Source of the DNA: Blasia pusilla | Lineage: Eukaryota | Length of the DNA: 64,000 bases | Direction of reading: 5' to 3' | Assembly: GCA_050084515.1 (NCBI GenBank) | Contig: CM114271.1 | Location: 39,928,001 to 39,992,000 of the forward strand | Part shown: in pieces, positions 20,456-57,095 of the stretch | How positions within the stretch are numbered: position 1 is the stretch's first letter | Layout: each line of letters begins with the position of its first letter | Notes under the pieces: generated by a model | Database searches by the model: none | What the model was told of the DNA's origin: nothing | Seen by the model: only the letters and a program-made list of their open reading frames with translations | Position numbers and translations under genes: made by a program

Positions 20456-20545
20456 TCTCACTACGCAACGTTTACTTGCACAGCACCTTCAACGTTTGTT
20501 TCCTTTGCACTCTACCAGAGCCCGACAGATAGCAAACAGGTCGCG

Positions 20546-21043
20546 ATGGCTTCCCTCGCAGCAGTGTCCGTGTCCGTGCCTTCATACGCCGCATTGAAGG
20601 CGGCCGGGAGCAAGAAGGTGACCGTCTCCCGATCTGCCGCTGTTGTGTGCAGCGCAGCACCCGTGGAGAGCAACTGGTCGAAGGCGGCCAAGGTTCTCGT
20701 CGCCACCGGCGCTGGAGTTTTGTTGGCTGCCTCGTCGGCCAGCGCAGCCGTCACCGTGAAATTGGGCGCTGATTCAGGTGCCCTCGTATTCGAGCCCCAA
20801 GAACTCACCATCCCCGCAGGGGAAACCATTAAGTTCGTAAACAACGCAGGTTTCCCTCACAATATCGTGTTCGACGAGGAAGACATTCCCGCTGGAGTGA
20901 ACGCTGACGCCATCAGCCAAAGTGAGTACTTGAATGGACCGGGAGAAACTTACTCACTCACCCTGAACGAGAAGGGTGTCTACAACGGCTACTGCGAGCC
21001 CCACCAGGGAGGTGGCATGAAGGTGAAGATCACCGTGGAGTAG
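20546..21043 (+). CDS. petE: Plastocyanin precursor (165 aa, intronless)
   Basis: MASLAAV transit peptide, hydrophobic thylakoid signal ending ASA, mature [13 protein letters not shown], and copper ligands in PHNIVF and [10 protein letters not shown]. Confidence 0.97.
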
Positions 21044-24672: not shown

Positions 24673-26061
<1,389 letters not shown>

Positions 26062-29800: not shown

Positions 29801-32800
29801 GGGAGATCTTGAAAGATAGAAGGGATCGAAATACCTTGCATCAAGATATAATTATGTCGCATCAATAGTATCCTCTCCTGATGTAGTATTTTCCAAGGTA
29901 TATGATATTGCATCAGATCTTTTGTACACATACTTATAAAAGTACTTTACTGCCAAGATGCTATTTGTTATCTCCAGATTGATATGACAATCAAATAAAG
30001 TACATAACATTGGATTGTATGGAACCGCCCAACGATTATCAAAGTCATGATTTGACTTATAATCAATCTGCCATTATCACGCCTGCATAAACACATATAG
30101 AAGTATGTTAATAGTTGGGGAAAATAGATAGCACACTAATAGAAGAACATTAAATGACAAAATAAACAACAAAACCAATGAATTACCTCTTATAAATAAC
30201 ATATCCATCCTCATTCTCCATTGTCATTGATACAAAGGGCATTGGGTATCCTTTGGAATATTTTATTGTCGTTTTATCCGTGCAAGGTGTAGTTGGATAT
30301 ACTACTCCACACCGACCATGAATCATACAACTTCTTACAGTAGAATGTAGCCTAGGATGAGTCATGGGATTCAGAATCTCAGCATATATAATATCGTCAA
30401 AATCAGAGGTTGTCCTTGGCTTATCCTTAGAAGCAAGAATAATTAGGATATGCACATGTGGTAGCCCTCTCTTTTGGAACTTGACCACATGAATGCATCC
30501 TACCACTTGACCCAAAATATGCTTATCCAATATAAGTCTCAAAAACTCCTTCTTTTGTTGGAAAACACGTACAACGAGGTCATGACGATCTGACGTTGAT
30601 TGCCCATGAAGCAGAGCAGAAGTAATCTCTGGCCATTTAGGATTGCAAGTTATAGTAAAAAAGTAGTCAAGCTTCCCAAAATGTCTCACAATGGCCATAG
30701 CATCATGGTATAATTGATGCATGTGACGGGATCCTCCTATGAAAGACGAAGGTAAGATAATACGTCTCCCTATGCCTTGACCGTTCACATCATCCTGAGT
30801 CATGGCATCTCTGACACCTTGGTATGAATCAACTCTCAACTCTTTTTGATGCAATCGTATCCAAGTTAGCCGTTGCATTTCGATAGTCGCATACATATCC
30901 ATCATACATTCTTGAGTAAGACGACCAAACCTCAACAACCGATTATTATCCATAGCGTTAGCTCGCATTTGAAGTATGAATGAAGCAAATTGTAAAGTTG
31001 TAATGGTCTTTGAACTCGCCTCATGAATGGTAACCTCACCTTGAATTTCTCCTTGTACAATATCATCTCTATCTTCATCCATCATAGCATCCCCTCTTAA
31101 CGGCAAATCATCTCTATGATCATGTTGCACTTGCAAAGGTATCCCAGGATGCCAACGTGCTTCATCATAAACAAAAGGAAAAACAAAGTGCAATGGGATA
31201 TATGCTTCATTCAAGTTTGACAGACGACGAATCCCTCCTCCATGTAAGCGAACAATAATATCACGTCCTTCTACTTGCTCACTCCCATCTCCAGGCAAGA
31301 TAGATACAATCTCTAAAGCAACAGCAAGGTGTATCGTTTTGCATCGAGACCTCGCTTACTACCCTTAAGAACAATATGAAAGTCAGAATTACATGGATCA
31401 ATAGCCACATTTCGAAATAAAGCCACATATGGATTATGGGCATGTAACATATCTCTGGCCTCAATTGATCCCGATAATCTCCACTCATAATCCTTCTTCT
31501 ATGCTCCATCTGATGCTCATCATCATGAATATAAATTTGAGCGAATTGTGGAGGAGCACCACTTTCAGCATGAAGAGGTCCAATAGAATCATATACACCA
31601 CCTTAAATCCTGAAGTTTCCTATACGGCCTCGTTGCTCTATCACATGTGCCCAAGTAGATGCCAATTGAAGAGCACTATTATAGGCACGTGCATTACACA
31701 AAAAATGAAGACTATTTGAACTCATACCAGAAAGTAATTTTGCTAACCGATGCGACGGTGATCATCAAGGAAGAATCGGAGTTTAAAGTGGAGACTATCT
31801 TGCGTTCAAGATAGAGGGCCAGCAAGTATGAATACTTGGTCCATAAAACATACTAAAAGCCGAGCTTATAAACCTAGTATATTTCACTCTCTCACACTTC
31901 CAATGTAGAGCATTGCAAGTCGGACAAACAACATTCATAAGTCCAACACTAAAACGACCAATCATACTATCAATACGATCTCCCAACCTAAGAATTCGAA
32001 TGTGATTCTCTTCAAAGTTAGGAATACGTGCAATATTGAGCAACTTTTTCAAGTTCACAACCCTTCTAGATACAACATTTGGAATCGAGGCATGTATATT
32101 GTCTTCATTTTCTTCCATGTGGTCTTCACGATTGGCTGCATTGGCATCGCTCCTTATCAACGGATCACAAATATATGCAATCTCATGTACTTCATCCAAA
32201 TGTGATCCCACATTTGGAATCGAGGCATGTACATTGTCTTCATTCACTTCCATGTGGCCTTCACGATTAGGTCCATTGGCATCATTCCTTATCAACGAAT
32301 CGCCAACATGTGCAATCTCATGTACTTCATCCAACTGAGCATGTCTTCTTCTTTGGCCCTCAGCTCGAGCAACTTGAAGCATGTGAGATAATCGTAGATG
32401 ATTGGTAGGAACTGGAAGACTGCAAGCAGAGGTTAAGAAATTAATATATATGATTATAATAAGAATAAAAATACATACAAACATATCTATATTAAATTTG
32501 AGTATATAGTTTAGAAATATACATTGGAGATGGTAAGACCACAATCCTAGAGTTTGGAATAGCTTCAACTTCATGATGTACCATAATTGGCCTGCAAAAA
32601 AAATTGTTATTAGAAATCATTCATAAAAATTTAAGACCAAGTAGGAAGCATCAATAATAAAAGTATGTAAAACATACCTTGTATTAGCTTGAGTATGAAA
32701 GTCATTAGTAGTCATAGCCTCGACTTCCTCTCTAGGAAAAAGATTAACAAACAATTGATAAACATTCGCTTGGGCCAAATTATTGTGCCTTCTTCTCTGG

Positions 32801-33662
32801 CCTTATGCTCATGCAACTTGAGAGCTATTATGTGTTGAGGGTTGACGGAAGTGGAAGACTAAGAAAAACAATATTAATAAAAATTAAGTCAAAATAATTA
32901 AAATTAAAATTAAAAAACCAAAAAAAAGAAATTAATGAGTGGATGAAACATACATTGAAGACGATGTAGTGTCTATTAAAGCATGAAGATTTTCATTGGA
33001 AGGTGTTGCTACTAACCTGAACAAAGAATAAAAAAAAGTCATAATACGAAAAAAAATTATATAACTATTATTATAATAAAAAGTAGAAATATTATACATA
33101 AATAAATACATTCTAGTATTTGCGTCTGGTGAGCCATCGATGATGGATGGTTGTAATTCTTCCATCGAAGGAACATTCACAACAGCTTCAATAGATCTCA
33201 ATTCAACTAATTTAGCATGTCTTCGCTTTTGTCCTTGAGCTCTCACAATTTGATGTATATCACCTAATCGTTGCGGGTTCGATGGATTTGGAAGTCTACA
33301 TCACAAACATGAAAGATATTAAAGTCACACAACAAATCTAGAGTGTGCACATATGGTTACGATATCATTCTATAATCATAATGCTAAGTATCCTTACATT
33401 GGAGATGACAAAGTTGTTGAATGAGTTATAAATCGCAAATCTCGAAGCGACCTTCTGTTTCTTTGAGAAGCAACCCTTCTAGCCTTCTTATATGCAAGCT
33501 TCTCTGTTTCCTCCGAGGTTGGCGGAAGTGGAAGATAGAAGATGGAGCACTACATGAAATGTGGTGATCATGCTCCACATTAGGTAAAGAGACTACATTG
33601 GTGATGTTTGCGAATGGTCTTTTCTCATTTCGTCTCAATGGTTCCTCTTCAGATTCATGCAT
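26850..33662 (-). mobile_element. Decayed autonomous-type Helitron Rep/PIF1 helicase gene with AT-rich introns
   Basis: Rep motifs YFFTITCNPKW, FQKRGLPHVHILI (HUH) and KYFYKYVYK (~29925-29950). Helicase motifs [33 protein letters not shown] and FSHGQLY. N-terminal CPTCNALHWKCE. Stops and frameshifts present; termini not firmly located. Confidence 0.93.
32075..32335 (-). repeat. Coding tandem duplication (~132 bp unit) in the Helitron N-terminal region
   Basis: LDEVHEIA...LIR.DAN..NRE.HME.NEDN.HASIPNV occurs twice in ORF 31795-32574. Confidence 0.85.
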
Positions 33663-33864
33663 CTTGTGACAATATCAACCATCCGACCAAAATATGTATT
33701 TTCAATATAAAAATAATAATAGAAAAAAAAGAAAATTTTGTAAAAAAAACTTATACTTAAGATTTGGTCCGTGAATATTATAATCTATATTAAAAAATAG
33801 ATTTACATGATTAGTTCCTTCACTCCCATGCATGGCATGGACTGCCCACTAATAAGATTAAAGC

Positions 33865-34862
33865 AAAAATAGTCTTGGTTGGTAGCTAGGGTAGTTGGGA
33901 TAGTTTGGAGGATCCAAAGTGAGTTGATTAGGATATTTTGGAGGAGATAACATCTAATGTTCTTGTGTCAAAATGGGATTGGTTAAGCCTTGAGAAGAAG
34001 CCATATGGCACAAGATAAGATTAGTCTTGTTTTGTATTCTTGTGGATCAATTGTGAGTATATAAAGAGGAAGGACCTTCAAGGGTTCATCACCTTTTATT
34101 TCATTCTTGAGTTTCTCGTGTCACTCTTGAATGGATGGAATTAGGCTTGTTTGCTCTTCTAATGAGAGTGGATTACCCCTTTGGGAATAGTAACTTGACC
34201 ATGGTCTATTCTTCGAGAGTTTTCTAGAGTCTAATATGTGTGGAGATGGTTATTTTGAGAGATTTGTCATCTTAGGGAAGTTTTGTTATACTAAGGATAG
34301 TTGATGGTTTTGGTTTGTTATTTTTTCCACCGAAAGTGAATTATCCTTCTTGGTAGAGCAACTCCGCCAAAACCCATTCTTGAGGAGAATAGAGAACGTC
34401 CGTAAATTATAGATATGGGTGGAGCACGAGTGGTACCCCATTTTCCTTTTCTTAACCTATATCACGTGAAGGTTCTCTTCGTAGATAGAGACTCGTTTAC
34501 TTGCTATATAGTCTATCACTTTTGGGAAGCATTTATTACCGAGGTTACGCAATCTCCAACTCCAATGATACTGTCTATTGTCACGTACGGAAGGACATGG
34601 GATTGTATTTTGTATGTCATTATATAACGATATGTTAATAGGTCTGCTTTAGTAGGGTTTAACACTAATTGTGCCATTTTTCTTGTGTAAAAGTGTGAAG
34701 TAGTTTACATGGACTTCATAATTATGAATTTTTGGGTTAGATGTTATGAAGAAGTGATCGCCTCGGCACTATCATTCCTGATTTCCTGTCGTGAGAGAAA
34801 GAAGAATGTATATATTAATTCTATACTGAAAAGTGTAACTTCTTAGAGAGTTCACCTTGCAT
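33865..34862. repeat. Dispersed ~1 kb non-coding repeat, copy 2
   Basis: Colinear with 16205-17215. Confidence 0.85.
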
Positions 34863-35458
34863 GAACGTATGCCGTAACTATAAGCTTCTCCCATACTCAA
34901 ATAAAATTTATTTTCATGACAACGGAGTTATAATTTCCAACGGCCAATGTGCGTAATCATATGTACGTATCTCAATGTCCTTTCAAACATCCAAATGTTA
35001 TGCCCAAAGCTCTTTCATACATCAATTTAGATAAATATGTGTATTTTCCCAAAACCATAATGACATTAATAGATGGTTGAATGGTAAGATCTAAATTCAT
35101 TCCATAGTGATGGCCGGATGGTTACATTTTTGCGCGCAATAATCTTATAGTTTCTAAAAGGGGTTGCGTTCTATGCAATCGGCGGTAAAAGGGTGGAGGA
35201 AAATTTGAACTACATAACCAAAATTCATGGGTTTAAATTATTATATAAACTTTTATTTTATTTTATATAAAAAAATCAAGCTTTTTTTTATGAGAAAAGA
35301 TAACTATTTTTAAAAATCAATTAATTAAAAAAATTATTCAATAGTAATATAAATATTTCCGTAGTTTAAATTTACTCATTTCAATTACAAGAATAGACGC
35401 TGAATCTCCTAATGTCTTTTCTGACTTTGTAAGTTACAACGAACGACACCTTACAACT

Positions 35459-36102
35459 TGTCCAGCGTATACACATCGCTACACAACATACATCACTCTC
35501 ACCAAAAATCCACACAAACACGCACGATCCCATGCTAACTCATGACATCCAAACAACGAGACAAGAAGTACCAAAATATTTCCAATTAAAATAAAGATCC
35601 AATCTCTCTCAATACCATAGCTCTCAAATGTGTGCACTCTCACATATCTCTCTCAATGTCAAACCAAACCCACTCTCCTAATGAGATGCTTGGGTTACAC
35701 ACACAAGGCAAGCAAGACTATAATTCCGCCGCCTTATGCCAAGAGGTTCAACAAAGAGAGAATGAGCTCTCAAGTTATCTCTCCTTGAGGTATAGCCCTC
35801 CCCTCTCCCAAACTCTCTCAATGGTAACCTATGCTCCCAAGTCGCCTCCTTGGCTCTTGACCTGATATAGGAGGTCAATGGCTACTTAATACAAATAGAA
35901 AATCGACCATATACTGAAAATGGTACTTACCTAAAATAGTAAGTTTATGAATATGGCTCCAAATAAGCCGAAACGAAGGGGAAACCTGCTCTCTCACGTT
36001 TCCCGGGGTCTTAGTAGGTCATCCTTAACTTCTTGAGTATGTCCTCCACTACTCGTGGAGGCGTTGTATTAGATCTCATTGATCTATTTTAAAAGACGTG
36101 AC
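35459..36102 (-). repeat. 3' LTR (~644 bp)
   Basis: TGTC...GACA ends; homologous to 41305-41784, 44414-44734, 13410-14000 and 7835-8352. Confidence 0.8.
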
Positions 36103-36422
36103 AGTTATCGTGCGCATACACATCGCTACACAACATACATTGTTGTCACCAAACACAAACACACACACACAAACACGCACGATCCCATGCTAACTCGTGG
36201 CATCCACACAACGAGACAACACGTACCAAAATATTTCCAATCGCCCCCCTAGGTGGTGGTTAAGTCCCTCTAACTCATGATAGCCATCTATCCCTACCTA
36301 CCATGACATACATCTCTCGAACGCTAAGAGCAAGAAGGCTGGGTGCTCATGTGGCCCCATCATTAGTCGCCTTCTTGTCATCCATATCACAGACACAAGT
36401 CGGAATGTAGAAGTACCTACGC

Positions 36423-36565
36423 TATGTACATCTGGGATACATCCATCTTCCCTGAGGAACCCTAGTGAGAGGTGGCGTCAAACATGCCATATGCCATCCT
36501 CTCGAACATCCATCACAGACTAGCATAGTGGCTGCACCGTGGGCAAAACCACACAACATACTTCA
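36423..36565 (-). pseudogene. PHD finger at the integrase C-terminus
   Basis: In frame after a single TGA: SMLCGFAHGAATMLVCDGCSRGWHMACLTPPLTRVPQGRWMYPRCT*, a C4HC3 pattern with two Cys degraded. Confidence 0.88.
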
Positions 36566-37740
36566 CAAGCCTACAAGAACTATTGCTAAGCTTGGATCAT
36601 TTGTATCGTCAATGTTTGAAAGATGACATGACGCACAATTACGCACATGGTCCTTCCAAACCATACCATCGCGTCCCTCCAATAAGAGAACACCGGATGG
36701 CAAAACCTTACGCACTCTCAAGATGGTGCGCCCTGCAATCACATCCAAGGTCGTGCGTGCCGTCTGCAAGTAAACATAGTCTTCTTGATGAGAACTCCGC
36801 ATAGTATGTCGATAACCACCTCCCTGAATAGTCGCATACCTCAATGTATCCCGATGTTGCGCAATTGCCAAGTTCTCAAACGCCATGGGCATCACTCTCC
36901 GAAACAACTCAGCCCTATGAGAATTTGTTCGCATCCATACATCAGGGTTATCAAGGTTCAACACCTCACCAACATCTCGATGAATGGTCGTAGGTAAATC
37001 AGACTCTCGGCCATACAAGAGCAAGTACGGTGAGAAAGACACTAAGGATGCATGCTTGCTGAATCTGTATCCCATCGCCAACCACGGCAACTGGAGGTCC
37101 CAATTCCCTAGGTGACCTCTCTGCAAGCCATACTTGCGTAGTCCTCTCTTCACCGTTTGCACAACCCGCTCCGCTAGTCCATCTGCCTCTGGATGATCTC
37201 GCGAAGTAGTGCGATGGTCAATCAATGCCTGATCACATAAGGCCTAAAACTCCTCGCGGAACTGTGTATCCTGGTCTGTCAACATCTTAGATGGTATGCC
37301 GTAATGACTCAACACCCGATCTGGGAAGGCATACGCTACTCCCTCACTCTATCCACTTCGATAAGTGCTCGACCATCACCAACACATAGCGACTATGGCG
37401 CTCCGTCAAAGGCAAATGTCCTGCAAAATCCAAACTCCATGTATAACCTAAACCCATGATTGGAAGTGGATGCAACTGTAGAGTTGGAGCATTGAATGAT
37501 GCTCGGACTCGATCACACACCATGCATCTTGCAACAAACTGCTGAACGTGAGTCTGCATGCCTCGCCACCAATATTGAATCTTGAGCAAGCTGTACATTT
37601 GCTTCACTCCAAAATGACCCAATTCCTCGTAGGCATGATGCACTAAATGTCCTCTTTGCAAAGGATGAGGCACTACGCGCACTCTATCATCCTTCCACAC
37701 TCACAACACATGTGTCTCCTACCACCAAAACCGTCTGGCT
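36566..37740 (-). pseudogene. Gypsy integrase (HHCC plus DDE)
   Basis: HAYEELGHFG...CMVC; WSLDFAG; LTDQ; DGLAER. Confidence 0.92.
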
Positions 37741-38039
37741 CGCTATAGGATCCGATCCCGCTCTCTAGCACCCACTATGCTCGCGATGCTGCCAGTACGC
37801 GGGTATTCCAAGACCACTCCATCGTCGTGAATGTCTCGGCCACCTGTCATCTCCTCACCGGCCTCTGGATCTAAGAACTCTCCATCAGACCTTGCCATCA
37901 AAGTCTCAGCAATCTGGCTCTCTATAGCCAACAAGCCCAAATAGGCTGACGCATGTCATCTTGGCACCAACTCTCATCACTCTCACCATACCAACGAGCT
38001 TGAGTTGCATCTCGCTGACTAGGGCATGAATTACGGCTC

Positions 38040-39400
38040 AAACCATATACATCTTGGTTGAGCATCTCAAATCGAAGCACCACCTAGAAGTCATACTCCT
38101 GCAAAAAAGAGCCCGCCTCGCAAGCTTCCGTGTAAGCTTGTCGGACTCCATCAACCACTTAAGTGGCTGATGATGAGTAATGATGGTAAAGGGATTGCCA
38201 AATAGATAACATCTAAAATGTGTGATAGCCCACACTGTAGTCAAGCACTTGCCCTCATACAAGCTATAAGTCGCCTCTGCACCGTTGTTCGAGCAACTAG
38301 TGTAAGCCACCATAAACTCTCTACCATCATCATCATGCTGGATGAGCACGGCTCTAAGCCCCAACATGGTCCAATCGATATGCAATTGGAAAGGACGCCC
38401 TCTGATTGGTCTCCTCAATATGAGGGTGAACGTCAATCTATCCTTGAGCATCTGAAATGCTCTCTCCTGCTCATCCCCCCAGTGCCACTCCTCATCCACC
38501 TTGGTCAGCTAGGTCAACGGCTTCGCAATCCAGTTGAAACCCTTGACGTACCGTCGATAGACGTTCACCAATCCCATGAATGCCCGAACTCGACTCACAT
38601 CTGTAGGGTGTGGAATATGTGAAATAGCCTCTACCTTTGTCTACTGCACACCAAGGCCCCTTGGATATATCGTATGACCAAAGTACTCAATGTGGTCGTT
38701 GAAGAACTTGCACTTGCCTCGATGTAGTTTCGGCCCATGTAACTACAATCGTCGAAACACCTCCTCTAGATGTCGCTCATGCTCCTCAACCGTGGCGCTA
38801 AAGACTACGATGTCATCAATATAATACCTAGCAAAATCCAGACCTGCCTAAGATCCTATCCATGACCCTCTGAAACTCAGCCGGGGCGTTCTTTAACCCA
38901 AATAGTAAGAACCGCCACAAGTACAAGCAATCCTTCCCGTGAGGATCGATGCCCCAAAATATCGTCTTCTTCATGTTCTCCAATCTGATAGGCAGTTGAT
39001 GGTATCCGGCTCAAATATCTAACAAATTGAAGACCTTTGCATGCCGAATACCATCAAAGATCTCCTCACGTGTAGGCATGGCATACCTATCGGATTTTGT
39101 CTCCCCATTGATAGGTCGATAATCTCCACACATCCGCCTATCCGTCTAGTTGCCATGCACATCCTTCTTGGCGGGCATGATAGTGGCAGATGCGTACTCC
39201 CCATGCGACATCTCCTCTAGTCCTCCTCCGACCAAGTCCTGGCTCCCACTCTGAATCAGAGCCCTCTCCATGTCACTATACTTGTAGTATTGTCGGAAGA
39301 TCGGCGTGTCACTCAACAACTCAATGCGGATCCATGGACCCTTCAACGTACCCAAATGATGCATACTAAATTCAAAACAGCTCCTATAACTCGTAAGAAA
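38040..39400 (-). pseudogene. Reverse transcriptase and RNase H
   Basis: FGLKNAP and YYIDDIVVF (~38803-38826), IEYFGH; RNase H PFQLHID..., YEGKCL and HQPLKWL. Stops and frameshifts present. Confidence 0.93.
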
Positions 39401-39814
39401 TTGGTGTATCCGGCACCGCTCTCCTCCTATCAACTTAGGGTCCATATCTAGCTCCCAAGTCTCCATCGTCACTATGGTAGGACTCTGCGGCGCGGGTGTT
39501 GGTGGTTGCTATGGTGCAACTCCGTCTCGAACAATAAACTTGACTGCTCCCCTGCATCCAACTGCAAAATCGGATCTCCATGTGCAGTACCCGGAACCAC
39601 GCTTGATGTAGTGGCTACCATCTCCTGGCGTACCTGCAAAACATCCCAAGAAGTCCAAGGGTGTCTCTCCCGATCATCCTTGGTGTGTCGATCTCCTCGG
39701 GTCTTGCCCCCAGCCACTGCCTCAACCGTCTCGGTAGGCATGGGATTTACCAACACAACTATTGTGATCTGTCGCATTCTCAAACGACGCTGCTCAGCTA
39801 CTTATAAGTTGAAA

Positions 39815-40770
39815 ATCCACCTCAAGTAGTTCAGGTCCATCGCTTGACCCAAGACATGACATTGTGATGCCTCTGATAGTGACGGTACTACCATCACTCC
39901 TGTGGGGAATCCCATCGCTTGCTCTCGCTCATCGGCGTTGGGCTCCACCAACATGTGTACGTGGTCATCCTAAACCAAGCCAAGTCCGGCCTCCTTGAAT
40001 CAATAGGAATGCATGCATGCATGAAACTCACCAATGTGGGAAAGGCTGCCCGTGGCATGCCAATCTGGTTGACCACAGTCAACGAGGTCGATCATCTAGC
40101 CCCACTGACTGTGATCGACGACCCGGATCGAATATAGAATCCACCAACAAATCGGAGGGGCGGTCTACTCTCGCATATGCCCTCTGTAACACCTTATATG
40201 GTACCAAGTTGGTCCACTAAAGACGCGCGCGATGTGCTCGTGAACCCACACTCGTTGCATCCAAAAAAATTGTCGGCCCATCCATGCGTGCACCTGATGT
40301 GCACTCGTCACCACACGGGACCTCGAATCGCCCAAAATCAGTACATTCTCCAGAATTTATGTTGGAGGACGAGACTCATGCTCCAACAAGTGTCACAAGA
40401 TCCGCATCATCTCCCAAAACAACATGGACCTAGACTCAGCTAATCTGCTACCCCGTCCAACACTTGACTGGCCCTAACATGGCCAACTATCAATGACCAA
40501 GTCTATGGTCCCTACCGGCTCCAAGTCCTACGCCCCCAACAATGAAATGTCCCTCGGTAAGGAACCCTGGTAATCGTGAATGGCGGACGCATATAACAAG
40601 TCAAAAAAACATACGCATAACTATACCACATGGTGAAGTGAAGCGCGCCTCGCAACATCATCAATCTCCATATACATGTACTGGTGCACGTGCACTCCAG
40701 CGTACAAAACAACACATAACCAAATGCTGATCCCTCCGAAGAGTTCCAACACCCAAATACCCTCCTCTTG
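39815..40770 (-). pseudogene. DNMT3-like cytosine-5 DNA methyltransferase domain inside Gypsy pol
   Basis: Motifs in order: VLELFGGIS (I), YMEIDD (II), IDLVIDSWPC*G (IV; Cys codon 40477-40479), ILENV (VI; ENV 40342-40350), DATSVGSRAHRARL*WTNL (VIII), EPNADEREQAMGFP (IX), VLGQAMD (X). Confidence 0.9.
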
Positions 40771-41030
40771 GATGCACCACACAATCAGGGTGGTGTCCAA
40801 AGGGATCACAACAGCACTCCTGCCTACCTTGGGTTCCTCTAACCCATCACACTCTGGTGCAAACGTCTCACTCTACGCGGTCTCCACATGCCTAGTGGCT
40901 AAGCGTCAAAGCTCCTCAGTCAAGCCCAAAAGTGGCACCTCTCCTCCACGGACTGATGCGGCTACCATGACACTCCTCTCCATGGAAATGTCAGGAATGG
41001 GAGTATCCTCTGCATGGACATGTCCCTCAA

Positions 41031-41304
41031 TCAAATCACTAGGCAAGTGATGGCACTGCTAAATGCTGTTAAGGTTGCCATCTCTCGTGGCCGTCGCTCG
41101 ATCACTACACATGTGAATCGAATGGGTAATGAGGTAAGGCATCCATCACTTGACTGCCATCCTAGTCTGTAGGACGTTGACTTCTCCCAGTAATCCAGCG
41201 AACACCCCATCGGGTATAACACTGCTCCACCAACCAAGACCTCGTAGGACTCTTCATCAATCATTATCACCTTGGTTCGCACCACAGACTTGTTGTGCAT
41301 AGAC
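41031..41304 (-). pseudogene. Probable C-terminal part of the retrotransposon aspartic protease
   Basis: YEVLVGGAVLYPMG resembles the protease C-terminal motif and sits in the expected position. The catalytic DxG part and gag are missing. Confidence 0.5.
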
Positions 41305-41784
41305 ACGTCGCTACACAACATACATCGCTGTCATCGAACACACACACAAACATACACGATCCCATGCTTACTCATGGCATCCATACACAGAGGCGAGAAG
41401 TACCAAAATATCTCCAATTAAAGTAAGATCTAATCTCTCTCTACACCATCTCACACCATAGCTCTCAAAGATGTGCACTCTCTCTCATGTAAAACCAAAC
41501 CCACTCTCCTAATGAGAGGCTTGGATTACACTCACAAGGTTAGGGACCATAGCTCCGCCGCCTTATGCCAAGAGGTTCAACAAAGAGAGAATGAGCTCTC
41601 AAGCTCTCTCTCTTGGAGGTATACCCTCTTCCCTCTTCCAAGCCCTCTCAACGGTAATCTATGCTCGTAGGTCATCTCCTTGGCTCTTGACCTGCTGTAG
41701 CGGGTCAAGGGCCACTTACCAAAGTGGAAAGTCAAATATCCCCAATATGGGAATTTACCAAAAATAGTAAGTTTCTCCATATGG
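41305..41784 (-). repeat. Internal truncated LTR copy
   Basis: Colinear with ~35470-35955. Confidence 0.85.
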
Positions 41785-41786
41785 AA

Positions 41787-42095
41787 TTACATGGGCCGAA
41801 GCTACATCGAGGCAAGTGCAAGTTCTTCAACGACCACATTGAGTACTTTGGTCATACGATATATCCAAGGGGCCTTGGTGTGCAGTAGACAAAGGTAGAG
41901 GCTATTTCACATATTCCACACCCTACAGATGTGAGTCGAGTTCGTGCATTCATGGGATTGGTGAACGTCTATCGACGGTACGTCAAGGGTTTCAACTGGA
42001 TTGCGAAGCCGTTGACCTAGCTGACCAAGGTGGATGAGGAGTGGCATTGGGGGGATGAGCAGGAGAGAGCATTTCAGATGCTCAAGGATAGATTG
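41787..42095 (+). repeat. 309-bp inverted near-identical copy of 38434-38742 (RT segment)
   Basis: Reverse-complement match with about three substitutions; shares the same premature stops. Confidence 0.92.
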
Positions 42096-44198
42096 TCGGT
42101 ATAAGATCGTGGGTGCCGCCTGCTGTAAATACACGTAATCTCCAAGATGAAATCTCCTAATCCCTTGACGATAACTTCCTTCACAAATGGTCGCGTACCT
42201 CAATGTATCTCTATGCTGAGCAATAGCTAAGTTCTTAAAGGCCATAGACATAACTCTATGAAAAATCTCCGTCCTCTCAGAACATGCTTGTACCCACATA
42301 TCTAGATCATCAAGATCTAACACCTCCGCCATGTCACGTCGAATAGCTACATGTAAATGAAGCTCTCTCCCAAAGAGCAAAAAGTATGGTGAAAATGTCG
42401 CCAAGGATGTCAGCCGACTACAGCGATAACCCATAACCAACCATGGCAAATGAAGGTCCCACTCCCTGAACTGTCCTCGCTGCAAGCCATACTTGTGTAA
42501 TCCTCTCTTTACCGTCTCTACTACTCTCTCCGCCAACCCATCTGCCTCAGGATGATCTTTGGACGTGGTGCGGTGATCTATCAGCGCTTGACCACACAAG
42601 GCCTGAAACTCTCCCCTCAACTTGGTACCGTGGTCTGTCAACACCTCCGCCGGTGCACCAAAGTGACTAAGCATACGCTCTAGAAATGCATAAGTTGTTC
42701 CCTCGCTCGTCTTTTCCGATAGTGCCACCAACTCTATCCACTTGGAGAAATGCTCCACCATGACCAACACGTACATATGATGACGCCTCGTCAATGGCAA
42801 AGGTCCCGCAAAGTCTAAACTCCATCAATAACATAAACCCATAATCGAAAAGGATGTAACTGCGGAGTGGGAGCATTGAAGGATGCTTGCACTCTGTCAT
42901 ATACCATACATGTGGCCACAAACTTCTGTACCCGAGTATGCATGCCGCGCCACCAAAACTAAACCTGGAGTAACCTATAAGTACCCTTTACTCCAAAATG
43001 CCCAACTCCTCATGGGCATGTCGCACTACACGTGCACGTTGGGAAGGATGAGGTACCACTCGTATCCTACCATCTCCCCATACCTATAAAATGTGAGTCC
43101 CCTCCCACTTGAACCTCTTGGCTCCTTGTAGGATCCGATCCCGCTCCCTAGCACTCACTGTGCTCGCTATGACGCCAGTGCGCAAGAACTCCAGAACCTC
43201 CACGTCGTCATGGATATCACGACCACCTCTCGCCTCCTCTCTGATCCCCGGATCCAAAGACTCATCATCTAACCCCACCATTGGAGTCATCACCTGTGAC
43301 TGACCTACCATAGTCAACCAACAAAGATAGGCAGACGCATGCCAACCGGGCACCATCTCCTCATCACTCTCTCTGTGCCATCAAGCTCCTATGTTGTCTC
43401 TCTGACTCGGACATGGGTTATGACTCAACCCATCTGCATCCTGGTTCAGCCAACCTGGCTTCATACTCCTATAGTAATAGATCCCACCTAGCAAGCATTC
43501 CCGTAAGCTTGTCGAACTCCATCAACCACCTCAACGGCTAGTGATCAGTGATAAGTGTGAAAGGGTTGCCGAATAAATAGCACCTGAAATGTGCCACGGC
43601 CCACATTGTAGGCAAGCACTCTCCCTCGTAAGAGCTATATTTTGCTTCTGCAATGTTGTTGGATTGGCTTGCGTAAGCCACAACGAACTCCCTCTCCTCG
43701 TCATCTCTCTGACCTAGACCCAACATGCTCCCATCTGTATGTAATTGGAATGGGCGACCCCTAATCGATCTCTGTAAAATGGATGAGGACGTCAACCTGT
43801 CCTTAAGCTCCTGAAATGCTCGCTCCTCATCATCTCCCCACAACCAAACCTGATTAAGTCTCGTCAACAAGGTCAAAGACTTTGCGATTGCACTAAAACC
43901 CTTGACATACCGTCGATAGAAGTTTGCCAGTTTAAGAAACGCTCGGACTCGATTCACATCTATAGGGCGTGGAATCTACGCAATAGCCTCCACCTTTGTC
44001 TGCTGAACGTCTAACCCACTCAGGTATATGGTGTGTCCCAAGTACTCAATTTGCTCCTGAAAGAATCTGCACTTGCCTAGATGTAACTTAGTCCATGTAA
44101 GTGCAATTGCCAAAACACCTCCTCCACGTGTCGCTCATGCTCCTCAATCGTGGAACTGAAGATAAGAATATCATCTATGTAACATCGCACAAAATCCT
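42096..44198 (-). pseudogene. Second decayed pol copy (partial RT, RNase H, integrase)
   Basis: CYIDDILI at ~44162-44185; PFQLHTDG, YEGECL, LTDHG, DGLAER. Truncated at both ends. Confidence 0.9.
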
Positions 44199-44413
44199 TG
44201 GTAACCTGCGCGCACAGGTTATCAGGGTCAGATGACCTCGTCAACAAGTCACCTGGCTGTGAAAGACCTCAATAGGAAAATTTTCAGAAACGACGTTTCT
44301 AACACAATGGACCTATCCTCAACCTCATCCAAAAATGTGGGACATTTGGAGTCCGTTGGCTCCTATGCCCTATCCACGATAGATCTCGGCCTATCGGCTA
44401 CTCAGATGTGACA

Positions 44414-44734
44414 CCTTGAGGTATACCCCTCCCCTCTCCCAAGCTCTCTCCATTGTAACCTATGCTCCCAAGTCACCTCCTTGGCTCTTGACCTGATGTA
44501 GGAGGTCAAGGGTCACTTACTAAAAATAAAAAGTTGACCATATACTCAAAATGGTACTCTCCTAAAATAGTAAGTTACTCCATATGGCTCCAAATGAGCC
44601 GAAACGAAGGGGAAACCTCCTCTCTCAGGTTTCCTGAGGCCTCAACAGGTCATCTTCAACCTCTTGAGTCTGTCCTCCACTACTCGCAAAGGCGTTGTGC
44701 TAGATCTCACCGATCTATCCTAAAAGACGTGACA
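44414..44734 (-). repeat. Partial 5' LTR ending at the GACA terminus
   Basis: Colinear with ~35783-36102. Confidence 0.85.
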
Positions 44735-46957
44735 AACTGGAAAGTGTCTTATTAGGGTGGCATGTTACCTAAAATAACTTCATGGGAGGCTGCCCTAAAG
44801 TTTGACTGCCCGATGATTAAAGTGACTCAACCATAGATTAGAAAAAGCAAGTGAATGTATTGCCGTAAACTTTGATAGAGCTCTGGTTCGCGATGCAGAG
44901 TTTCTACATGACGATACTGCGGTAACCACAGCAAGGTCGATTCTCCCCTCGATTTCCATGAATATCCTTCTTGTCATCATTGTTAAGTCCGAACTCTATT
45001 TCTCCTAGATTTTCCTCGAACTCTTGACCTTGAGCTTTATGAATGAAAGACTTCTTCAATTGTAATATCTCTACTAATCGTACATTAATTGGAGAGTATA
45101 TGTCTCCTTTCTTCACCTAGGGTTTCCAACCAATCCAATTATAATACAGGTCCTTAGGTAACTTAAGATCAATTTTGAAATCAATTATTGAATAATGATG
45201 GATAATTGAAATTATCCGCCATTTACTAATGCATTGCACGAGTATGAACTAATTGATATTTTTTTGTGTGATTAGAATTCAAGAGCTTCTCTCTACAACC
45301 TCCACTATTAGGCCATTTGAATCGGTTCTCTTTGTCTCCTGCTGCCAAATATTCTTGTGGCATCTCGGTGCTAAGTCAATTTATAATGTAGAAGCTCCAA
45401 AATGCAAATTAATCCATAGGAACTTCTCAACCGTAGGAATCGAATGGAGAATCAGAGATGTGAGCCATTAATAAAAACATTTGGATTCACTACACTCCGT
45501 ATTAGTATTTGTCTACTCTCTCCACTCCATTCCATAAGTATCTTTTTTCTAACTTAGTGTCCAATTTAATTGGACACTGAATTAGAAAGAAGAATTACAC
45601 TCTCCATCGAGTTTGAAAAAAACCCAAAATGAAGACCCGCATACTGGTTTATTTTTCCTTCTCCGACGTGGCCTTGAGATCCTATTATGTTTGTGCGATT
45701 AGATTTTAGAGATTTTATATTTTTTTTTCTAATGTGGCCTTGTGTACATTTTTTAAAATTTTTTAATATCCTTTTTTAATATATAATTAAAAAAGGATGG
45801 GATTCAAAGACCCTTCCTCCGGTTTTGAGGTGTACATTTTGATGACACATATAACACCAAAACAAAACTAACATAACAAAAGAATTAAACTAAGAAGATG
45901 AACAAATTAGTGAGATACCACGCGTGATTTTCACGTATTTGCATAGGACATATATTATGCTAGTTTTCTCTTATTTCATATCCACCTTCCCCGGGCAGTT
46001 TAAGGTTTGCTTCGCCGTGGACGTGAAACAACGACACGTCGCGATGTTGATTTCGGAGACGATGCCGGGAAACGACGCGCGGGCACGACATACGAATCTA
46101 TGATCGGGCTGTTGCGAATAGCGGCAAAGACACGTCGATAGGCTACTTTCGGAGAAAATACCGCGTAACGACGCGCGCGCACGATAGAAGATGCGAGCGA
46201 GTCTGGCTCAACGGCGGCGACGAGAAGATAGAGTCAAGAGAGAAAGCAGCCGTCCTCGTCGATAGAATTTGACCACGAAACACAGACAGGGCAAGCCGCG
46301 AGACCGCGTCAAAGAATCGCTAACGATAACGTCTTGTTCCCGCCTTTCGTCCAGGCGTTGTGACCTCGTGGCGCGACTCGGAAAAGGGCTTTCGTCGGCC
46401 CCGCCCAAAGCTCACGCGGACCCGTCCCCATTGGGGTGCTGCGTCCGTGCGTGCTCGAGGTCGGGACTCGGGACTGGAAATACCCCAGACAGCGACTGTA
46501 CGCGTATCTCACCTCTTTCTTTCTTCATTATTCGTTTGTGGAAGCGCTCCTCCTCCGGTAGATGGCCAATGAACAATGCTCAAGAAGCTTTTTCCACGCG
46601 TCAACTTCGGACTGGGAGTCCGGGAGGGGATCCGCGTCGACTCGCTAACTCTCGGGGACGTCCCACGAGAATTCGCTTGGGGGACTCCGTAAGAATGGAG
46701 AGAAACCGGGAAGGCTCGGTAAACTACCGGGAGGTCGGTGCGACCCTGGTACTCCGGTTGCCAGGAGAATCGATCTGATTTCTCCACCGGTACCGCTATA
46801 GAGTACAGACTGTCCGACCAGTGTGGCGTAACAGTAACGTGGACGAAGGGCTCGGAGCAGCGACCTCCCACGCTGTGACGGGAAACAGAGAGGAAGTTTC
46901 TAGTCAAAGTCTGTCGCCGAGATGCTATCAAGGGGCGCCTCCCACGGCCGTTGTAGG

Positions 46958-48004
46958 AGATGTATTTGAATGGTGAGACCTAAATTCATTCCATAGTGGT
47001 GGCCGGGTGGTCACAAAGAGTACGGGTTTGGAAACTTTTTCGTCGTTTCGTAAGTTTTTAACACGTAAGTTTTCCCGAATTCACATGTGTACAGGACCAT
47101 TTAATTAATTATTAAATTTATTCTATAGTGGTGGTCACATTTTGGCGGATACAATCTTATCTATTTTATTAAAAAAGGACGGGTTTGGAAATTTATATGA
47201 TGTTGACACATAAACCTTTTTAAATCTCCCATATTGACACGTGTAGAAAAACATTTAATTAAGTTCTAACAAAAAGGACTAAGGGATTTTTTCACCCGTG
47301 CTTATCTATTTTATTAAAAGAGGAGGGGTTTAGAAACTTATATGGTGTTCATGCATAAACTTTTTAAAATCTTCCCGTATTGACATGTGTAGAAGAACAT
47401 TTAACTAAGTTCTAACGAAAAGGACCAAGTGTACTAAGGGATTTTTTCACCCGTGCTTTGCGCGGGCAAGATGCTAGTAGTTCCTAAAAGGGATTGCGTC
47501 CTGTGCAGCCCGTGATAAGAGGGTGGAGACAGCAGATGGTAAAAGGATGGAGGAAAAGTATAAATACATAACTAAAATTCACGGGTTTAAATTCCTACAC
47601 ATAAATTTATTTTTTAAATTAAAAATCATTTAAATTAATTTCAAACAATTTTATTGATTAATTTTTTTAATTATTAAAATAAAAAATTATTTAATAATAA
47701 TAGAAATATCTCCATATTTGAAGATTTATTCACTTCAATCACAGGGACAGACGATGAACCTCCCCGTGCCTTTTATGACTTTGCAGGTTGCAACCAACGA
47801 AAAGTGTCTCGTTGGGGTGGCATGTTACCTATAACAACTTCATGGGAGGCTGCCCTAAAGTTTGACTGCCCGATGATTAAACTGACTCCACCACAGATAA
47901 AAAAGCAGGAGAATGTATTGCCGTAAACTTCGGTAGAGCTCCGGTTCGGGATGCGGAGTTTCTACATGACGGTACTGCGGTAACCACAGCGCGGTCGATT
48001 CTCC
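46958..48004. repeat. Paralogue of the sequence interrupted by the Gypsy block (35070-35450 plus 44740-44946)
   Basis: Shared ctaaattcattccatagtg and catgggaggctgccctaaagtttgactgcccgatgattaaa...ggtcgattctcc. Confidence 0.85.
47160..47477 (+). mobile_element. Non-autonomous Helitron (318 bp) with an internal tandem duplication
   Basis: 5' TC; 3' hairpin cccgtgc-ttt-gcgcggg then CTAG; inserted between A and T with no TSD. The empty site aatctta|tagtt is visible at ~35141-35152. Confidence 0.88.
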
Positions 48005-56300: not shown

Positions 56301-57095
56301 TTGGCTCGACACATTGCGAGTGTCGCCGGAGTCTGGATCCACTTGGTGTGCATTTGGTACGGTGTCCAGTTGGGGGTGAGAGGATAGCCACTCACGATGC
56401 AATGCGGGATATTATGTTCTCTATTTCTCGGGAGAGTGGATTCCATGTACAAAGAGAGAGGCACTACTCCATGCGGGATTCCCTTATCTGTGCTGATCTC
56501 TACATGACGAGGGAGTCTGAGGTGGTGGTAGCGGATGTTGTAGTGACGGATCCTATGCGGGAGGCGGTGCGAGCCCAAGTGGTAGCACAAGGGAGATTGC
56601 TACAAGAGCGGCGGCGGCGGCGGCGGCGGTCAAGAAGATCCACATTTATAGTCGATTTCATGACGGACATCGATTTATCCCCCTAGCCATTGAGATGTAC
56701 GGGGCGATGGGGGAGAGGTTTGACTCGTTCCTTACGGATTGCGCCCATCATCTCCAGTCGAGAAATGGGTTGTCCTTAGCCACTGAGATACTTTATTGTA
56801 GGCAACGGGTCTCCATAGCTTTGCAGCGCGCCTAGGCAAATGGGCTCCTGCGGCGGGCTCAGGCGGTTGGAGACGCCAATGCTAGAGGCCCACTTAGTAG
56901 TAGTGATAGTTCTCTAGGTGTTGTTGATATTATCTCTGCTGTTGGTGATTTTGGTCGTTAGGGGGGAAGGCCTCCTTCTTTCTCCTCGGGGCCGGTTCCG
57001 GCCTCTTGAGGTCTATTTTTGGGGTCTCCATGCCCCCCCCTCTTTTGTATCGTGATGGGTTTCCCATCCTTTTTCTACATATATATTTTATTTCC
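53310..57095 (+). mobile_element. Non-LTR retrotransposon with RT, zinc knuckle and restriction-like endonuclease (CRE-like), copy 1, decayed
   Basis: GGIRPIAIGE, QLGVA, QVDVENAFNSVSR, GYPLG, LAND (degraded ADD), LRVLGVPLG; CEC...GVHLVRC; HDAMRD; ADL...ADVVVTDP; FIPLAIEMYG; stop at 56959-56961. 5' boundary approximate. Confidence 0.88.

What the first reader, a model, noticed from the sequence alone, without database searches (positions are those of the whole stretch)
39815..40770. Gypsy retrotransposon carrying a DNMT3-like cytosine methyltransferase between protease and RT
Seen: manual minus-strand translation across stops and frameshifts gives the main C5-MTase motifs in order: VLELFGGIS, YMEIDD, DLVIDSWPC(*)G with the catalytic Cys kept, ILENV, AHRARL(*)WTNL, EREQAMGFP and LGQAMD. 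They lie on the pol strand between a protease remnant and RT. Established: these closely parallel the DNMT3 catalytic domain (VLSLFDGI, DLVIGGSPC, FENV, AHRARYFWGNL, ERVFGFP). From memory, DNMT-bearing retrotransposons have been reported in dinoflagellates and the charophyte Klebsormidium; I do not recall a characterised land-plant family. Inference: the domain was part of the polyprotein and could methylate the element's own cDNA or target DNA. This copy is inactive.
Basis: partly seen in the sequence, partly recalled or inferred. Interest (0 to 1): 0.92.

Follow-up and report, generated by a model that had tools for sequence, protein, structure and literature searches.

The report
Dead retrotransposon carrying a DNA methyltransferase
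This is a broken copy of a jumping gene whose own protein includes a DNA-methylating enzyme of the DNMT3 type, a kind first described in a green alga and here found in what looks like a liverwort.

Summary
On the minus strand, 40788-39802 holds a full-length but broken C5 cytosine methyltransferase domain (PF00145, E 4.8e-7). It has at least 6 in-frame stops and at least 2 frameshifts. It lies between a protease remnant (41294-41103) and RT-RNaseH-integrase (39469-36563).

It is not a one-off capture. The window is collinear with an intact 2188-aa polyprotein, gag-PR-DNMT-RT-RH-INT (P0079). The same order occurs in Marchantia polymorpha Mp_8g15430, Closterium proteins and 60 metagenome loci. 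The domain's closest solved relatives are DNMT3A/3B/3C only.

The element ends in split direct repeats (B-A-B; complete relatives are A-coding-B-A-B). This matches the figure legend for KnitGypsy-Dnmt3 of Klebsormidium (de Mendoza 2018).

Reads labelled with the source species show roughly 10^3 copy equivalents and one-stranded transcripts of the family. The window's plastocyanin is closest to liverwort plastocyanins.

Verdict: a 5'-truncated, dead member of a known kind (streptophyte Gypsy-DNMT3). My literature searches found no land-plant report, so it extends the kind to land plants. Self-methylation of cDNA remains inference.

The parts
35458..35586 (-). Terminal repeat B2, the 3' end of the element; ends ...GGACA
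   Evidence: Direct-repeat families D7/D8/D10; alignment; sequence read
35587..36103 (-). Repeat A2 (about 517 nt; starts TGTCACG)
   Evidence: 86% identical over 300 nt to 44414-44713; alignment; sequence
36104..36241 (-). Internal repeat B1, a copy of B2 directly upstream of A2, giving the arrangement B-A-B
   Evidence: Several metagenome loci align to the window through B1 and stop at 36099-36108. B-to-A junction reads occur in DNA and RNA runs
36243..36254 (-). Polypurine-tract-like CCTAGGGGGGCG immediately upstream of B1
   Evidence: Read; the same TAGGGGGGCGA lies upstream of B1 in locus L031. Its function is inferred
36563..37742 (-). Integrase (zinc-binding and core regions), broken into several frames
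   Evidence: tblastn with P0079 residues 1870-2177, E 6e-64; ORFs
38038..38508 (-). RNase H region of RT
   Evidence: tblastn with P0079 residues 1517-1798; ORF
38828..39469 (-). Reverse transcriptase, with an internal deletion near 39052 and a 1-base insertion at 38849 relative to most family copies
   Evidence: tblastn; indel and loose-end tables
39802..40788 (-). DNMT3-type C5 cytosine methyltransferase domain, pseudogenised (at least 6 stops, at least 2 frameshifts)
41103..41294 (-). C-terminal half of the aspartic protease. The element is cut off here: no protease N-terminal half, no gag, no 5' repeat
   Evidence: tblastn with P0002 residues 645-713, E 4.7e-15. No gag anywhere in the window at E<=5. 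972 DNA reads run on past 41290 into one consistent other sequence, agreement 0.9
41288..41771 (-). A/B-type repeat of a second, related element that abuts the truncated protease
41771..42098 (+). Inverted 328-nt duplicate (97%) of the RT/RNaseH segment 38431-38758
   Evidence: Inverted repeat I1
41907..44268 (-). Second element's INT-RH-partial RT, 67-79% identical to the first; it holds no DNMT, PR or gag
44414..44735 (-). A-type repeat (5' end of the second element, internally truncated). 44734 is a family-wide element boundary
   Evidence: 828 DNA reads have diverse sequence beyond 44734, agreement 0.34

Best explanation
Window 35458-41294 (minus strand) is a 5'-truncated, mutationally dead copy of a Ty3/gypsy-type retrotransposon. 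Its Gag-Pol polyprotein carries a DNMT3-type C5 cytosine methyltransferase as an integral domain between protease and reverse transcriptase. The family has the layout gag(zinc knuckle)-PR-DNMT3-RT-RNaseH-INT and is bounded by split direct repeats A-coding-B-A-B. It is the same kind as KnitGypsy-Dnmt3 of Klebsormidium. It is widespread in streptophytes, abundant (about 10^3 copy equivalents) and transcribed in read sets labelled with the source species. That species looks like a liverwort by its plastocyanin. [quoted passage not shown] Inferred only: the DNMT is translated within the polyprotein, freed by the protease, packaged with RT and INT, and methylates the element's newly made cDNA (or DNA at the integration site) de novo. 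The incoming copy would then carry the host's own methylation mark.
For: PF00145 hit on the window piece. All motifs are present in order. Solved-structure relatives at E<=0.01 are DNMT3A/3B/3C only: 29 of 29 for P0007 and 29 of 29 for the window piece. With a family profile the top 29 are DNMT3 (E 3e-19 to 1e-14). DRM follows at 4e-10 on the N-terminal half only, then HhaI/HaeIII at about 1e-8, DNMT2 at about 1e-5 and DNMT1 at 0.25. Foldseek top hits are all DNMT3 (the model is only moderate, pLDDT 60). The window is collinear with P0079, an intact 2188-aa ORF holding zf-CCHC, Asp protease, DNA_methylase, RVT_1, RNase H and integrase. PR-DNMT or DNMT-RT order is found in Marchantia polymorpha Mp_8g15430 and in Closterium spp. 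proteins; a Mesostigma viride protein of undetermined architecture falls on the same side of the tree. Among the 60 metagenome loci, none places PR downstream or RT upstream of DNMT. DNMT dN/dS is 0.14 for L041 vs L042 and 0.12-0.17 for L012 vs five others. In the DNMT tree the window groups with L012, L006 and Marchantia (support 100) inside the PR-DNMT-RT side (48 rows), which a branch of support 99 splits from the RT-RH-DNMT-INT side (82 rows). B-A-B occurs in the window and in L015, L023, L030 and L031, with complete A-coding-B-A-B in L030 and L031. This matches the legend of Fig. 4c in PMC5890265. DNA depth over the DNMT bins is about 1300-1500, against about 1.3-1.65 in the low-copy bins 45152-46000. 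RNA reads of three runs lie 10-100 to 1 on one strand.
Against: No Klebsormidium sequence was at hand, so relatedness to KnitGypsy-Dnmt3 rests on architecture, not on a tree. The domain order of KnitGypsy-Dnmt3 is given only in a figure or supplements I could not see. No host DNMT3 or DRM sequence is in my tree, so placement inside DNMT3 rests on PDB ranking alone. Within the closest metagenome subfamily, DNMT dN/dS is 0.36-0.94, higher than RT at 0.26-0.56. That fits decay after insertion, but it also allows weaker constraint. Only 2 of the 60 loci have an ORF of 600 aa or more, so most sampled copies are dead. DNA depth over the DNMT bins is 50-70% of the neighbouring PR and RT bins. This could mean lower conservation, or that some copies lack the domain. 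The copy-number baseline rests on two bins, and reads were laid at 80% likeness or more. The RNA comes from other copies (most reads are under 90% alike), and its sense orientation assumes a dUTP-type library. Catalytic activity is untested; the published yeast assay of the Klebsormidium DNMT gave no methylation and was called inconclusive.
Confidence: 0.85

Rival explanations
1. One-off event: a fragment of a host DNMT3 gene was captured by, or merely lies nested inside, this single retrotransposon copy.
For: The locus is a messy nest of two related elements with an inverted duplication, so chance juxtaposition is conceivable in principle.
Against: The same PR-DNMT-RT order sits in one intact ORF in P0079. 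It also occurs in Marchantia, Closterium and 60 metagenome loci. The nearest relatives among 1.84 billion representatives are transposon-borne DNMTs. Of the 150 listed hits, 50 matched my gypsy-domain queries. None of the 10 longer unmatched proteins scanned has PWWP or ADD; 4 of them carry retroelement domains (RVT_1 with Dam, copia RVT_2, copia-type gag, aspartyl protease). DNA depth is about 10^3 times the low-copy flank.
Confidence: 0.02
2. Convergence: the liverwort, Marchantia and Closterium elements acquired DNMT3 independently of the Klebsormidium KnitGypsy-Dnmt3. They resemble it in architecture only.
For: Retrotransposons have acquired DNMTs repeatedly (PMC5890265; preprint 10.64898/2026.05.21.726589, passages read). 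My data show a second placement (RT-RH-DNMT-INT-PHD/Tudor) in chlorophyte-type elements. DNMT also sits with copia and DIRS/Dam domains. No Klebsormidium sequence was compared.
Against: The unusual A-coding-B-A-B repeat layout combined with gypsy domains is shared with the published description. DNMT domains of all PR-DNMT-RT elements fall on one side of a well-supported split that includes Closterium (PR-DNMT-RT order) and a Mesostigma protein of undetermined architecture. This fits one old streptophyte lineage.
Confidence: 0.15
3. The domain is conserved but does not methylate the element's own cDNA. It may act on RNA, on host DNA near insertion sites, or as a non-catalytic binder or decoy against host silencing.
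For: The Klebsormidium DNMT gave no methylation in yeast, reported as inconclusive. In L042 a single in-frame stop separates gag-PR-DNMT from RT-RH-INT. Several protein clusters of 1330-1339 aa in which Pfam finds only PF00145 exist; in the tree they are labelled PR-DNMT type, so they may be similar products ending after the DNMT. If so, the DNMT may be made in Gag-like excess rather than in Pol-like amounts.
Against: The catalytic motifs (FxGxG, PCQ, ENV, the RxR of motif VIII, motifs IX-X) are kept in intact relatives of both architectures. That argues for catalysis. SymbioDIRS-Dnmt3 domains do methylate CG de novo in yeast.
Confidence: 0.2

Closest known systems
KnitGypsy-Dnmt3 of Klebsormidium nitens (de Mendoza et al. 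2018, PMC5890265; passages and figure legends read)
   Same: A non-rearranged DNMT3-type domain inside the Pol polyprotein of a gypsy-type element. Repeats are arranged as in DIRS elements (A-coding-B-A-B). The DNMT is under purifying selection. The host is a streptophyte.
   Different: The host looks like a liverwort, so a land plant. Copy number is about 10^3, against 'fewer copies' in K. nitens. Sequence relatedness and the position of the DNMT in the K. nitens polyprotein could not be compared, because the figure and supplements were not available.
SymbioDIRS-Dnmt3 of Symbiodinium (same paper)
   Same: A DNMT3-type domain in the Pol ORF, A-coding-B-A-B repeats, and the proposed self-methylation of cDNA.
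   Different: Those are DIRS elements with a tyrosine recombinase. This family has a DDE integrase (rve), a protease and a zinc-knuckle gag.
Host DNMT3A/3B (animals) and plant DNMT3/DRM
   Same: Catalytic fold and motif order. They are the best and only strong solved-structure relatives.
   Different: No PWWP, ADD or UBA reader domains. Motif details differ (AGWPCQGHS, AHRxRxxWTNL, LGQAMDLN). The domain is not rearranged as in DRM. It is embedded in a retrotransposon polyprotein.
Chlorophyte-type gypsy elements with RT-RH-DNMT-INT-PHD/Tudor (database proteins such as Scenedesmus sp. PABB004 'pol' and Monoraphidium neglectum MNEG_11595). I found no paper describing them.
   Same: Clearly homologous transposon-type DNMT domain and a gypsy backbone.
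   Different: The DNMT lies between RNase H and integrase, and a C-terminal PHD or Tudor domain is present. Their DNMTs form the other side of the tree split.
EpiLTRs (preprint 10.64898/2026.05.21.726589, passages read)
   Same: LTR retrotransposons that carry DNA methyltransferase domains.
   Different: Their DNMT is sister to DNMT4, sits at the 3' end of pol, and is combined with Dam and a chromodomain.

Membership tests
C5 cytosine DNA methyltransferase (Pfam PF00145) | Significant profile match | tested here: met
   E 4.8e-7, 29.9 bits against a cut-off of 22, on window 40788-40291 read with X at stops
C5 cytosine DNA methyltransferase (Pfam PF00145) | Motifs I, IV (PC), VI (ENV), VIII, IX and X in canonical order | tested here: met
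   the catalytic Cys codon is kept (SWPC*G)
C5 cytosine DNA methyltransferase (Pfam PF00145) | Open reading frame able to give an enzyme | tested here: not met
   At least 6 in-frame stops and at least 2 frameshifts in this copy. Intact in relatives L006, L012, L041, L042 and P0079
DNMT3 clade | Closest to DNMT3 among solved methyltransferases | tested here: met
   DNMT3A/3B/3C fill the top 29 places. DRM, bacterial enzymes, DNMT2 and DNMT1 follow at much weaker E-values
DNMT3 clade | DNMT3-like fold | tested here: met
   Foldseek top hits are all DNMT3A/3B/3C, E 4e-14 to 9e-12, TM 0.5/0.62. The model is only moderate: pLDDT 60, pTM 0.69, from a 5-sequence alignment
DNMT3 clade | Placement within DNMT3 in a tree with host DNMT3, DRM and other DNMT classes | not tested
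   No named host DNMT3 or DRM sequences were available as protein records; my tree holds transposon-borne domains only
DNMT3 clade | N-terminal chromatin readers (PWWP, ADD) | tested here: not met
   No such Pfam domains in P0002, P0079 or the other scanned relatives
Ty3/gypsy (Metaviridae) LTR retrotransposon | Pol order PR-RT-RH-INT with a DDE integrase | tested here: met
   with the DNMT inserted between PR and RT
Ty3/gypsy (Metaviridae) LTR retrotransposon | Gag with a CCHC zinc knuckle | tested here: not met
   Absent from this truncated copy. Present in P0079, P0103, P0077, P0117 and Marchantia P0002
Ty3/gypsy (Metaviridae) LTR retrotransposon | Two identical-in-structure LTRs | tested here: not met
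   The repeats are split: A at the 5' end and B-A-B at the 3' end (window). Read-level boundaries lie at the A start and the B end
KnitGypsy-Dnmt3 kind (PMC5890265) | DNMT3-type domain within the gypsy Pol polyprotein ORF | tested here: met
   Intact single ORF in P0079; the window is collinear with it
KnitGypsy-Dnmt3 kind (PMC5890265) | DIRS-like repeat arrangement A-coding-B-A-B | tested here: met
   B-A-B in the window; complete in L030 and L031. The published description is the legend read
KnitGypsy-Dnmt3 kind (PMC5890265) | Purifying selection on the DNMT (published Ka/Ks < 0.2) | tested here: inconclusive
   0.12-0.21 between subfamilies and 0.14 for L041/L042, but 0.36-0.94 among close, mostly dead copies
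KnitGypsy-Dnmt3 kind (PMC5890265) | Sequence relatedness to the K. nitens copies | not testable with these tools
   No K. nitens protein appeared by name. Supplements are closed

The most novel reading that the evidence does not exclude
One ancient streptophyte lineage of gypsy-type elements carries its own DNMT3 and has DIRS-like split repeats despite a DDE integrase. It has persisted from early streptophyte algae (Mesostigma, Klebsormidium, Closterium) into land plants. In at least one liverwort-like genome it is a high-copy (about 10^3), still transcribed family. Its enzyme would then be an unrecognised, transposon-encoded source of de novo cytosine methylation in bryophytes. The chlorophyte RT-RH-DNMT-INT-PHD elements would be its sister lineage.
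Probability: 0.3. Interest if true: 0.72.

Novelty: new member of a known kind. Interest (0 to 1): 0.5.

Why it matters
Retrotransposons that encode the enzyme normally used to silence them are a rare twist in the arms race between genomes and transposons. So far they have been described in the green lineage only for Klebsormidium, with few copies and no demonstrated activity. Showing the same kind in land plants gives experimentally tractable systems: an existing Marchantia polymorpha gene model, and an abundant, transcribed family in a liverwort-like genome. These could be used to ask what a transposon-borne DNMT3 does. It might methylate its own cDNA, shape insertion-site chromatin, or contribute to the host methylome. 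The split-repeat architecture with a DDE integrase also raises an open question about the replication mechanism.

Tried and rejected
- **Source genome:** none is held, so no copy census or search for intact copies was possible.
- **Rfam:** no match at gathering threshold anywhere in the window.
- **Pfam on the three shorter DNMT pieces:** no hits, because they are too short.
- **Gag search:** nothing credible in the window at E<=5. The missing 5' part of the element does not lie beyond the second element.
- **The look-up of sequencing runs:** no RNA holder was listed for this stretch and only small word shares were found, so nothing can be said about this copy's own expression. Organism names are coded.
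- **Naming the relatives:** most are unnamed metagenome or run assemblies. No Klebsormidium protein surfaced by name.
- **First metagenome scan:** an 11-sequence alignment was not conserved enough. A 5-sequence alignment worked.
- **Tree:** the IQ-TREE 'quick' run did not finish in 300 s, so FastTree was used instead. Supports are therefore local SH-like only.
- **CpG depletion as a sign of methylation-driven decay:** not evident in this copy. CpG observed/expected is 0.71-0.78, against 0.79 for the whole window. L012 shows 0.28-0.31. The read-level excess of T and A in the window where the family majority has C and G (673 against 326 places) does fit C-to-T decay.
- **Canonical LTR pair for elements 1 and 2:** rejected in favour of split repeats.
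- **Supplements of PMC5890265:** closed. They would show the KnitGypsy-Dnmt3 domain order, alignment and Ka/Ks.

Full report
**Observation.** I translated the minus strand of 41000-39700 in three frames. Read through with X at stops, 40788-40291 scores E 4.8e-7 (29.9 bits, cut-off 22) against Pfam PF00145. The three shorter pieces gave nothing. The same 166-residue piece finds Marchantia polymorpha Mp_8g15430 at E 9e-44, with 50% identity over 99% of the query. It also finds 512 proteins at E<=1e-3 in 1.84 billion cluster representatives.

I added the four window pieces to an alignment of intact relatives. They tile the whole domain: LELFGGIS (motif I), SWPC*G (IV), ILENV (VI), GSRAHRARL*WTNL (VIII), AFPTLVSF, EPNADEREQAMGFP and LGQAMDLN (IX-X). 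This copy has 5 stops in the N-terminal half and 1 in the motif VIII piece. It has at least two frameshifts.

**Anatomy of the locus.** tblastn with an intact relative (P0079) maps the window collinearly:
- DNMT: 40782-39814
- RT: 39418-38858
- RT/RNase H: 38844-38104
- Integrase: 37742-36836

The Marchantia protein adds the protease C-terminal half at 41294-41103. No gag is detectable anywhere in the window.

At 41290 the element is cut off by an A/B-type repeat of a second, related element (41288-44735). That element has INT-RH-partial RT only and is 67-79% identical to the first. It also holds a 328-nt inverted duplicate, 97% identical, of the first element's RT/RNase H segment. Read data agree with the truncation. 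In the DNA run, 972 reads continue past 41290 into one consistent sequence that the window lacks.

**Terminal repeats.** At its 3' end the element does not have a simple LTR. A polypurine-like CCTAGGGGGGCG (36254-36243) is followed by B1 (36241-36104), A2 (36103-35587) and B2 (35586-35458).

Complete relatives show A-coding-B-A-B:
- L031: A 1676-2017 and 10350-10691; B 10238-10350 and 10693-10805.
- L030: the same layout.
- L015 and L023: B-A-B.

In the source species' DNA reads, diverse flanking sequence begins at the A start (44734, 828 reads) and at the B end (36108, 784 reads). B-to-A junction reads are common and also occur in RNA. This is the arrangement that de Mendoza et al. 2018 give in figure legends. 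For SymbioDIRS-Dnmt3 they write 'A-coding region-B-A-B'. [quoted passage not shown]

**Is the DNMT part of the family?** Yes.
- P0079 is a 2188-aa uninterrupted protein. It has a zinc knuckle (530-547), aspartic protease (796-888), DNA_methylase (978-1226), RVT_1 (1421-1575), RNase H (1638-1766) and integrase (1895-2061).
- Marchantia Mp_8g15430 is gag-zinc knuckle-PR-DNMT, ending inside the DNMT.
- Closterium spp. proteins carry PR-DNMT or DNMT-RT.
- A scan of JGI metagenome contigs gave 60 loci (103 pattern matches, 60 confirmed). In none of them does PR lie downstream, or RT upstream, of the DNMT.
- These loci are 64-72% identical to the window at the DNA level. Only 2 of the 60 (L012, L042) keep ORFs of 600 aa or more.
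- In L042 a single in-frame stop separates gag-PR-DNMT (1369 aa) from RT-RH-INT (1047 aa).

A second architecture, RT-RH-DNMT-INT with C-terminal PHD or Tudor, dominates the other hits. It is named for Scenedesmus and Monoraphidium. I scanned 10 longer hits that had no gypsy match. Four of them carry retroelement domains alongside the DNMT (RVT_1 with Dam, copia RVT_2, copia-type gag, aspartyl protease), and none has PWWP or ADD. The nearest relatives of this domain are therefore transposon-borne enzymes, not host genes.

**Tree of the DNMT domains.** I built a FastTree tree of 130 DNMT domains, unrooted and with no host DNMT3 included. It splits PR-DNMT-RT elements (48 rows, including the window, Marchantia, Closterium and Mesostigma) from RT-RH-DNMT-INT elements (82 rows) with support 99. 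The window groups with L012, L006 and Marchantia with support 100. The window row fills only 43% of the columns.

**Which methyltransferase?**
- By sequence, the only solved structures matched at E<=0.01 are DNMT3A/3B/3C.
- A family profile ranks 29 DNMT3 sequences first (E 3e-19 to 1e-14).
- Plant DRM follows at 4e-10, matching only the N-terminal motif block against the C-terminal part of the DRM chain, as expected for a rearranged enzyme.
- Then come HaeIII/HhaI, DNMT2 and DNMT1 (E 0.25).
- An AlphaFold model of the L012 domain is moderate (pLDDT 60, pTM 0.69). Its Foldseek hits are all DNMT3.

**Selection.** Nei-Gojobori dN/dS on the DNMT domain is 0.14 for L041 vs L042 (dS 0.26). It is 0.12-0.17 for L012 against five others (dS near saturation). 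Among the close, mostly dead copies it is 0.36-0.94, compared with 0.26-0.56 for RT. The domain was therefore under purifying selection during family diversification. Recent copies are decaying.

**The family in its genome.** I laid about 1% of a whole-genome DNA run and three RNA runs, all labelled with the same coded species, on 33000-46000 at 80% likeness or more.
- DNA depth is 1300-1500 over the DNMT bins and 2000-3000 over RT/INT. It is 1.3-1.65 in the bins 45152-46000. That is on the order of 10^3 copy equivalents.
- Most reads are under 90% alike to the window copy.
- The window's frameshifting indels at 40010-40022, 41043 and 38849 are private to it.
- The window has T or A at 673 places where the majority has C or G, against 326 places the other way.
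- RNA reads lie 10-100 to 1 on one strand. This is the element's sense strand if the libraries are of the usual dUTP type. RNA depth is 18-31 over the DNMT bins.

**Host.** The window also carries plastocyanin, polyubiquitin, a Helitron and LINE copies. The best named plastocyanin relatives are liverworts: Marchantia paleacea 64%, Riccia 59-61%. The host is therefore most likely a liverwort not close to Marchantia.

**Mechanism.** The shown steps are the domain's identity, its integration in the polyprotein, its conservation and the family's transcription. The inferred steps are these. The polyprotein is cleaved by the element's protease. The DNMT travels with RT and INT. It methylates the new cDNA or the insertion site de novo. 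De Mendoza et al. proposed this for DIRS-Dnmt3. SymbioDIRS-Dnmt3 domains methylate CG in yeast, but the Klebsormidium domain gave no signal and the authors called that inconclusive. The split repeats with a DDE integrase imply a non-standard way of regenerating the ends. I cannot resolve it here.

**Comparison and novelty.** In the held literature, 'Gypsy-DNMT3' occurs in two papers only: PMC5890265 and a 2026 preprint that cites it for 'streptophytes'. Searches combining Marchantia, liverwort or bryophyte with retrotransposon and DNMT terms found no land-plant description (passages read). PMC12344493 mentions DNMT3 in Copia and DIRS structures 'as previously reported'. This finding is therefore a new member of a known kind. 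It extends that kind to land plants and to high copy number. This particular copy is dead.

**Left open.** No source genome was held. No K. nitens or host DNMT3 sequences were available. The supplements were closed.

Noticed in passing
window 35458-36254; L030, L031, L015, L023: A gypsy-type element with a DDE integrase but DIRS-like split direct repeats (A-coding-B-A-B). A polypurine-like tract lies directly upstream of the internal B. How the ends are regenerated is unexplained.
   Followed up: partly
L042:976-8226; proteins P0174-P0178: A single in-frame stop separates gag-PR-DNMT (1369 aa) from RT-RH-INT (1047 aa). Several independent protein clusters of 1330-1339 aa, in which Pfam finds only PF00145, may be similar products. 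If so, this suggests a conserved ORF1 ending after the DNMT, possibly with programmed readthrough.
   Followed up: no
proteins P0040, P0044, P0046, P0048, P0059 (Scenedesmus), P0202 (Monoraphidium): A large second group of gypsy polyproteins has the DNMT between RNase H and integrase, with a C-terminal PHD and sometimes a Tudor domain. It is apparently chlorophyte in origin. I found no paper describing it.
   Followed up: partly
proteins P0041, P0061, P0068, P0050: Related DNMT domains are also found with Dam plus RVT_1 (DIRS-like) and with copia-type gag or RVT_2. Some of these may be chimeric gene models of nested elements.
   Followed up: no
window 41771-42098 vs 38431-38758: A 328-nt inverted duplicate, 97% identical, of the first element's RT/RNase H segment replaces the end of the second element's integrase. 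It is a recent rearrangement, gene conversion or assembly artefact.
   Followed up: no
window 20543-21043 (+), 24673-26061 (-): An intronless plastocyanin precursor, closest to liverwort sequences at 59-64%, and a six-repeat polyubiquitin gene.
   Followed up: partly
window 26852-31355 (-): Helitron-like ORFs (Rep/helicase, PIF1-type) in several broken frames.
   Followed up: no
window 53850-56686 and 58661-61567 (+): Two diverged copies of a GC-rich element with long ORFs; read by eye as a LINE-like (non-LTR) retrotransposon, no domain search was run.
   Followed up: no
window 7001-7801 (+): Another gypsy-type integrase fragment, 31-37% identical to the family's integrase.
   Followed up: no
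window 44741-44951 and 47801-48009: Direct repeats, 90% identical and 3060 nt apart, next to the second element. They may be the ends of a small non-autonomous element.
   Followed up: no
window 33868-34735: Another repeat at about 600x DNA depth. Its RNA reads lie on the strand opposite to the DNMT family's reads, and a sharp read start lies at 33899.
   Followed up: no
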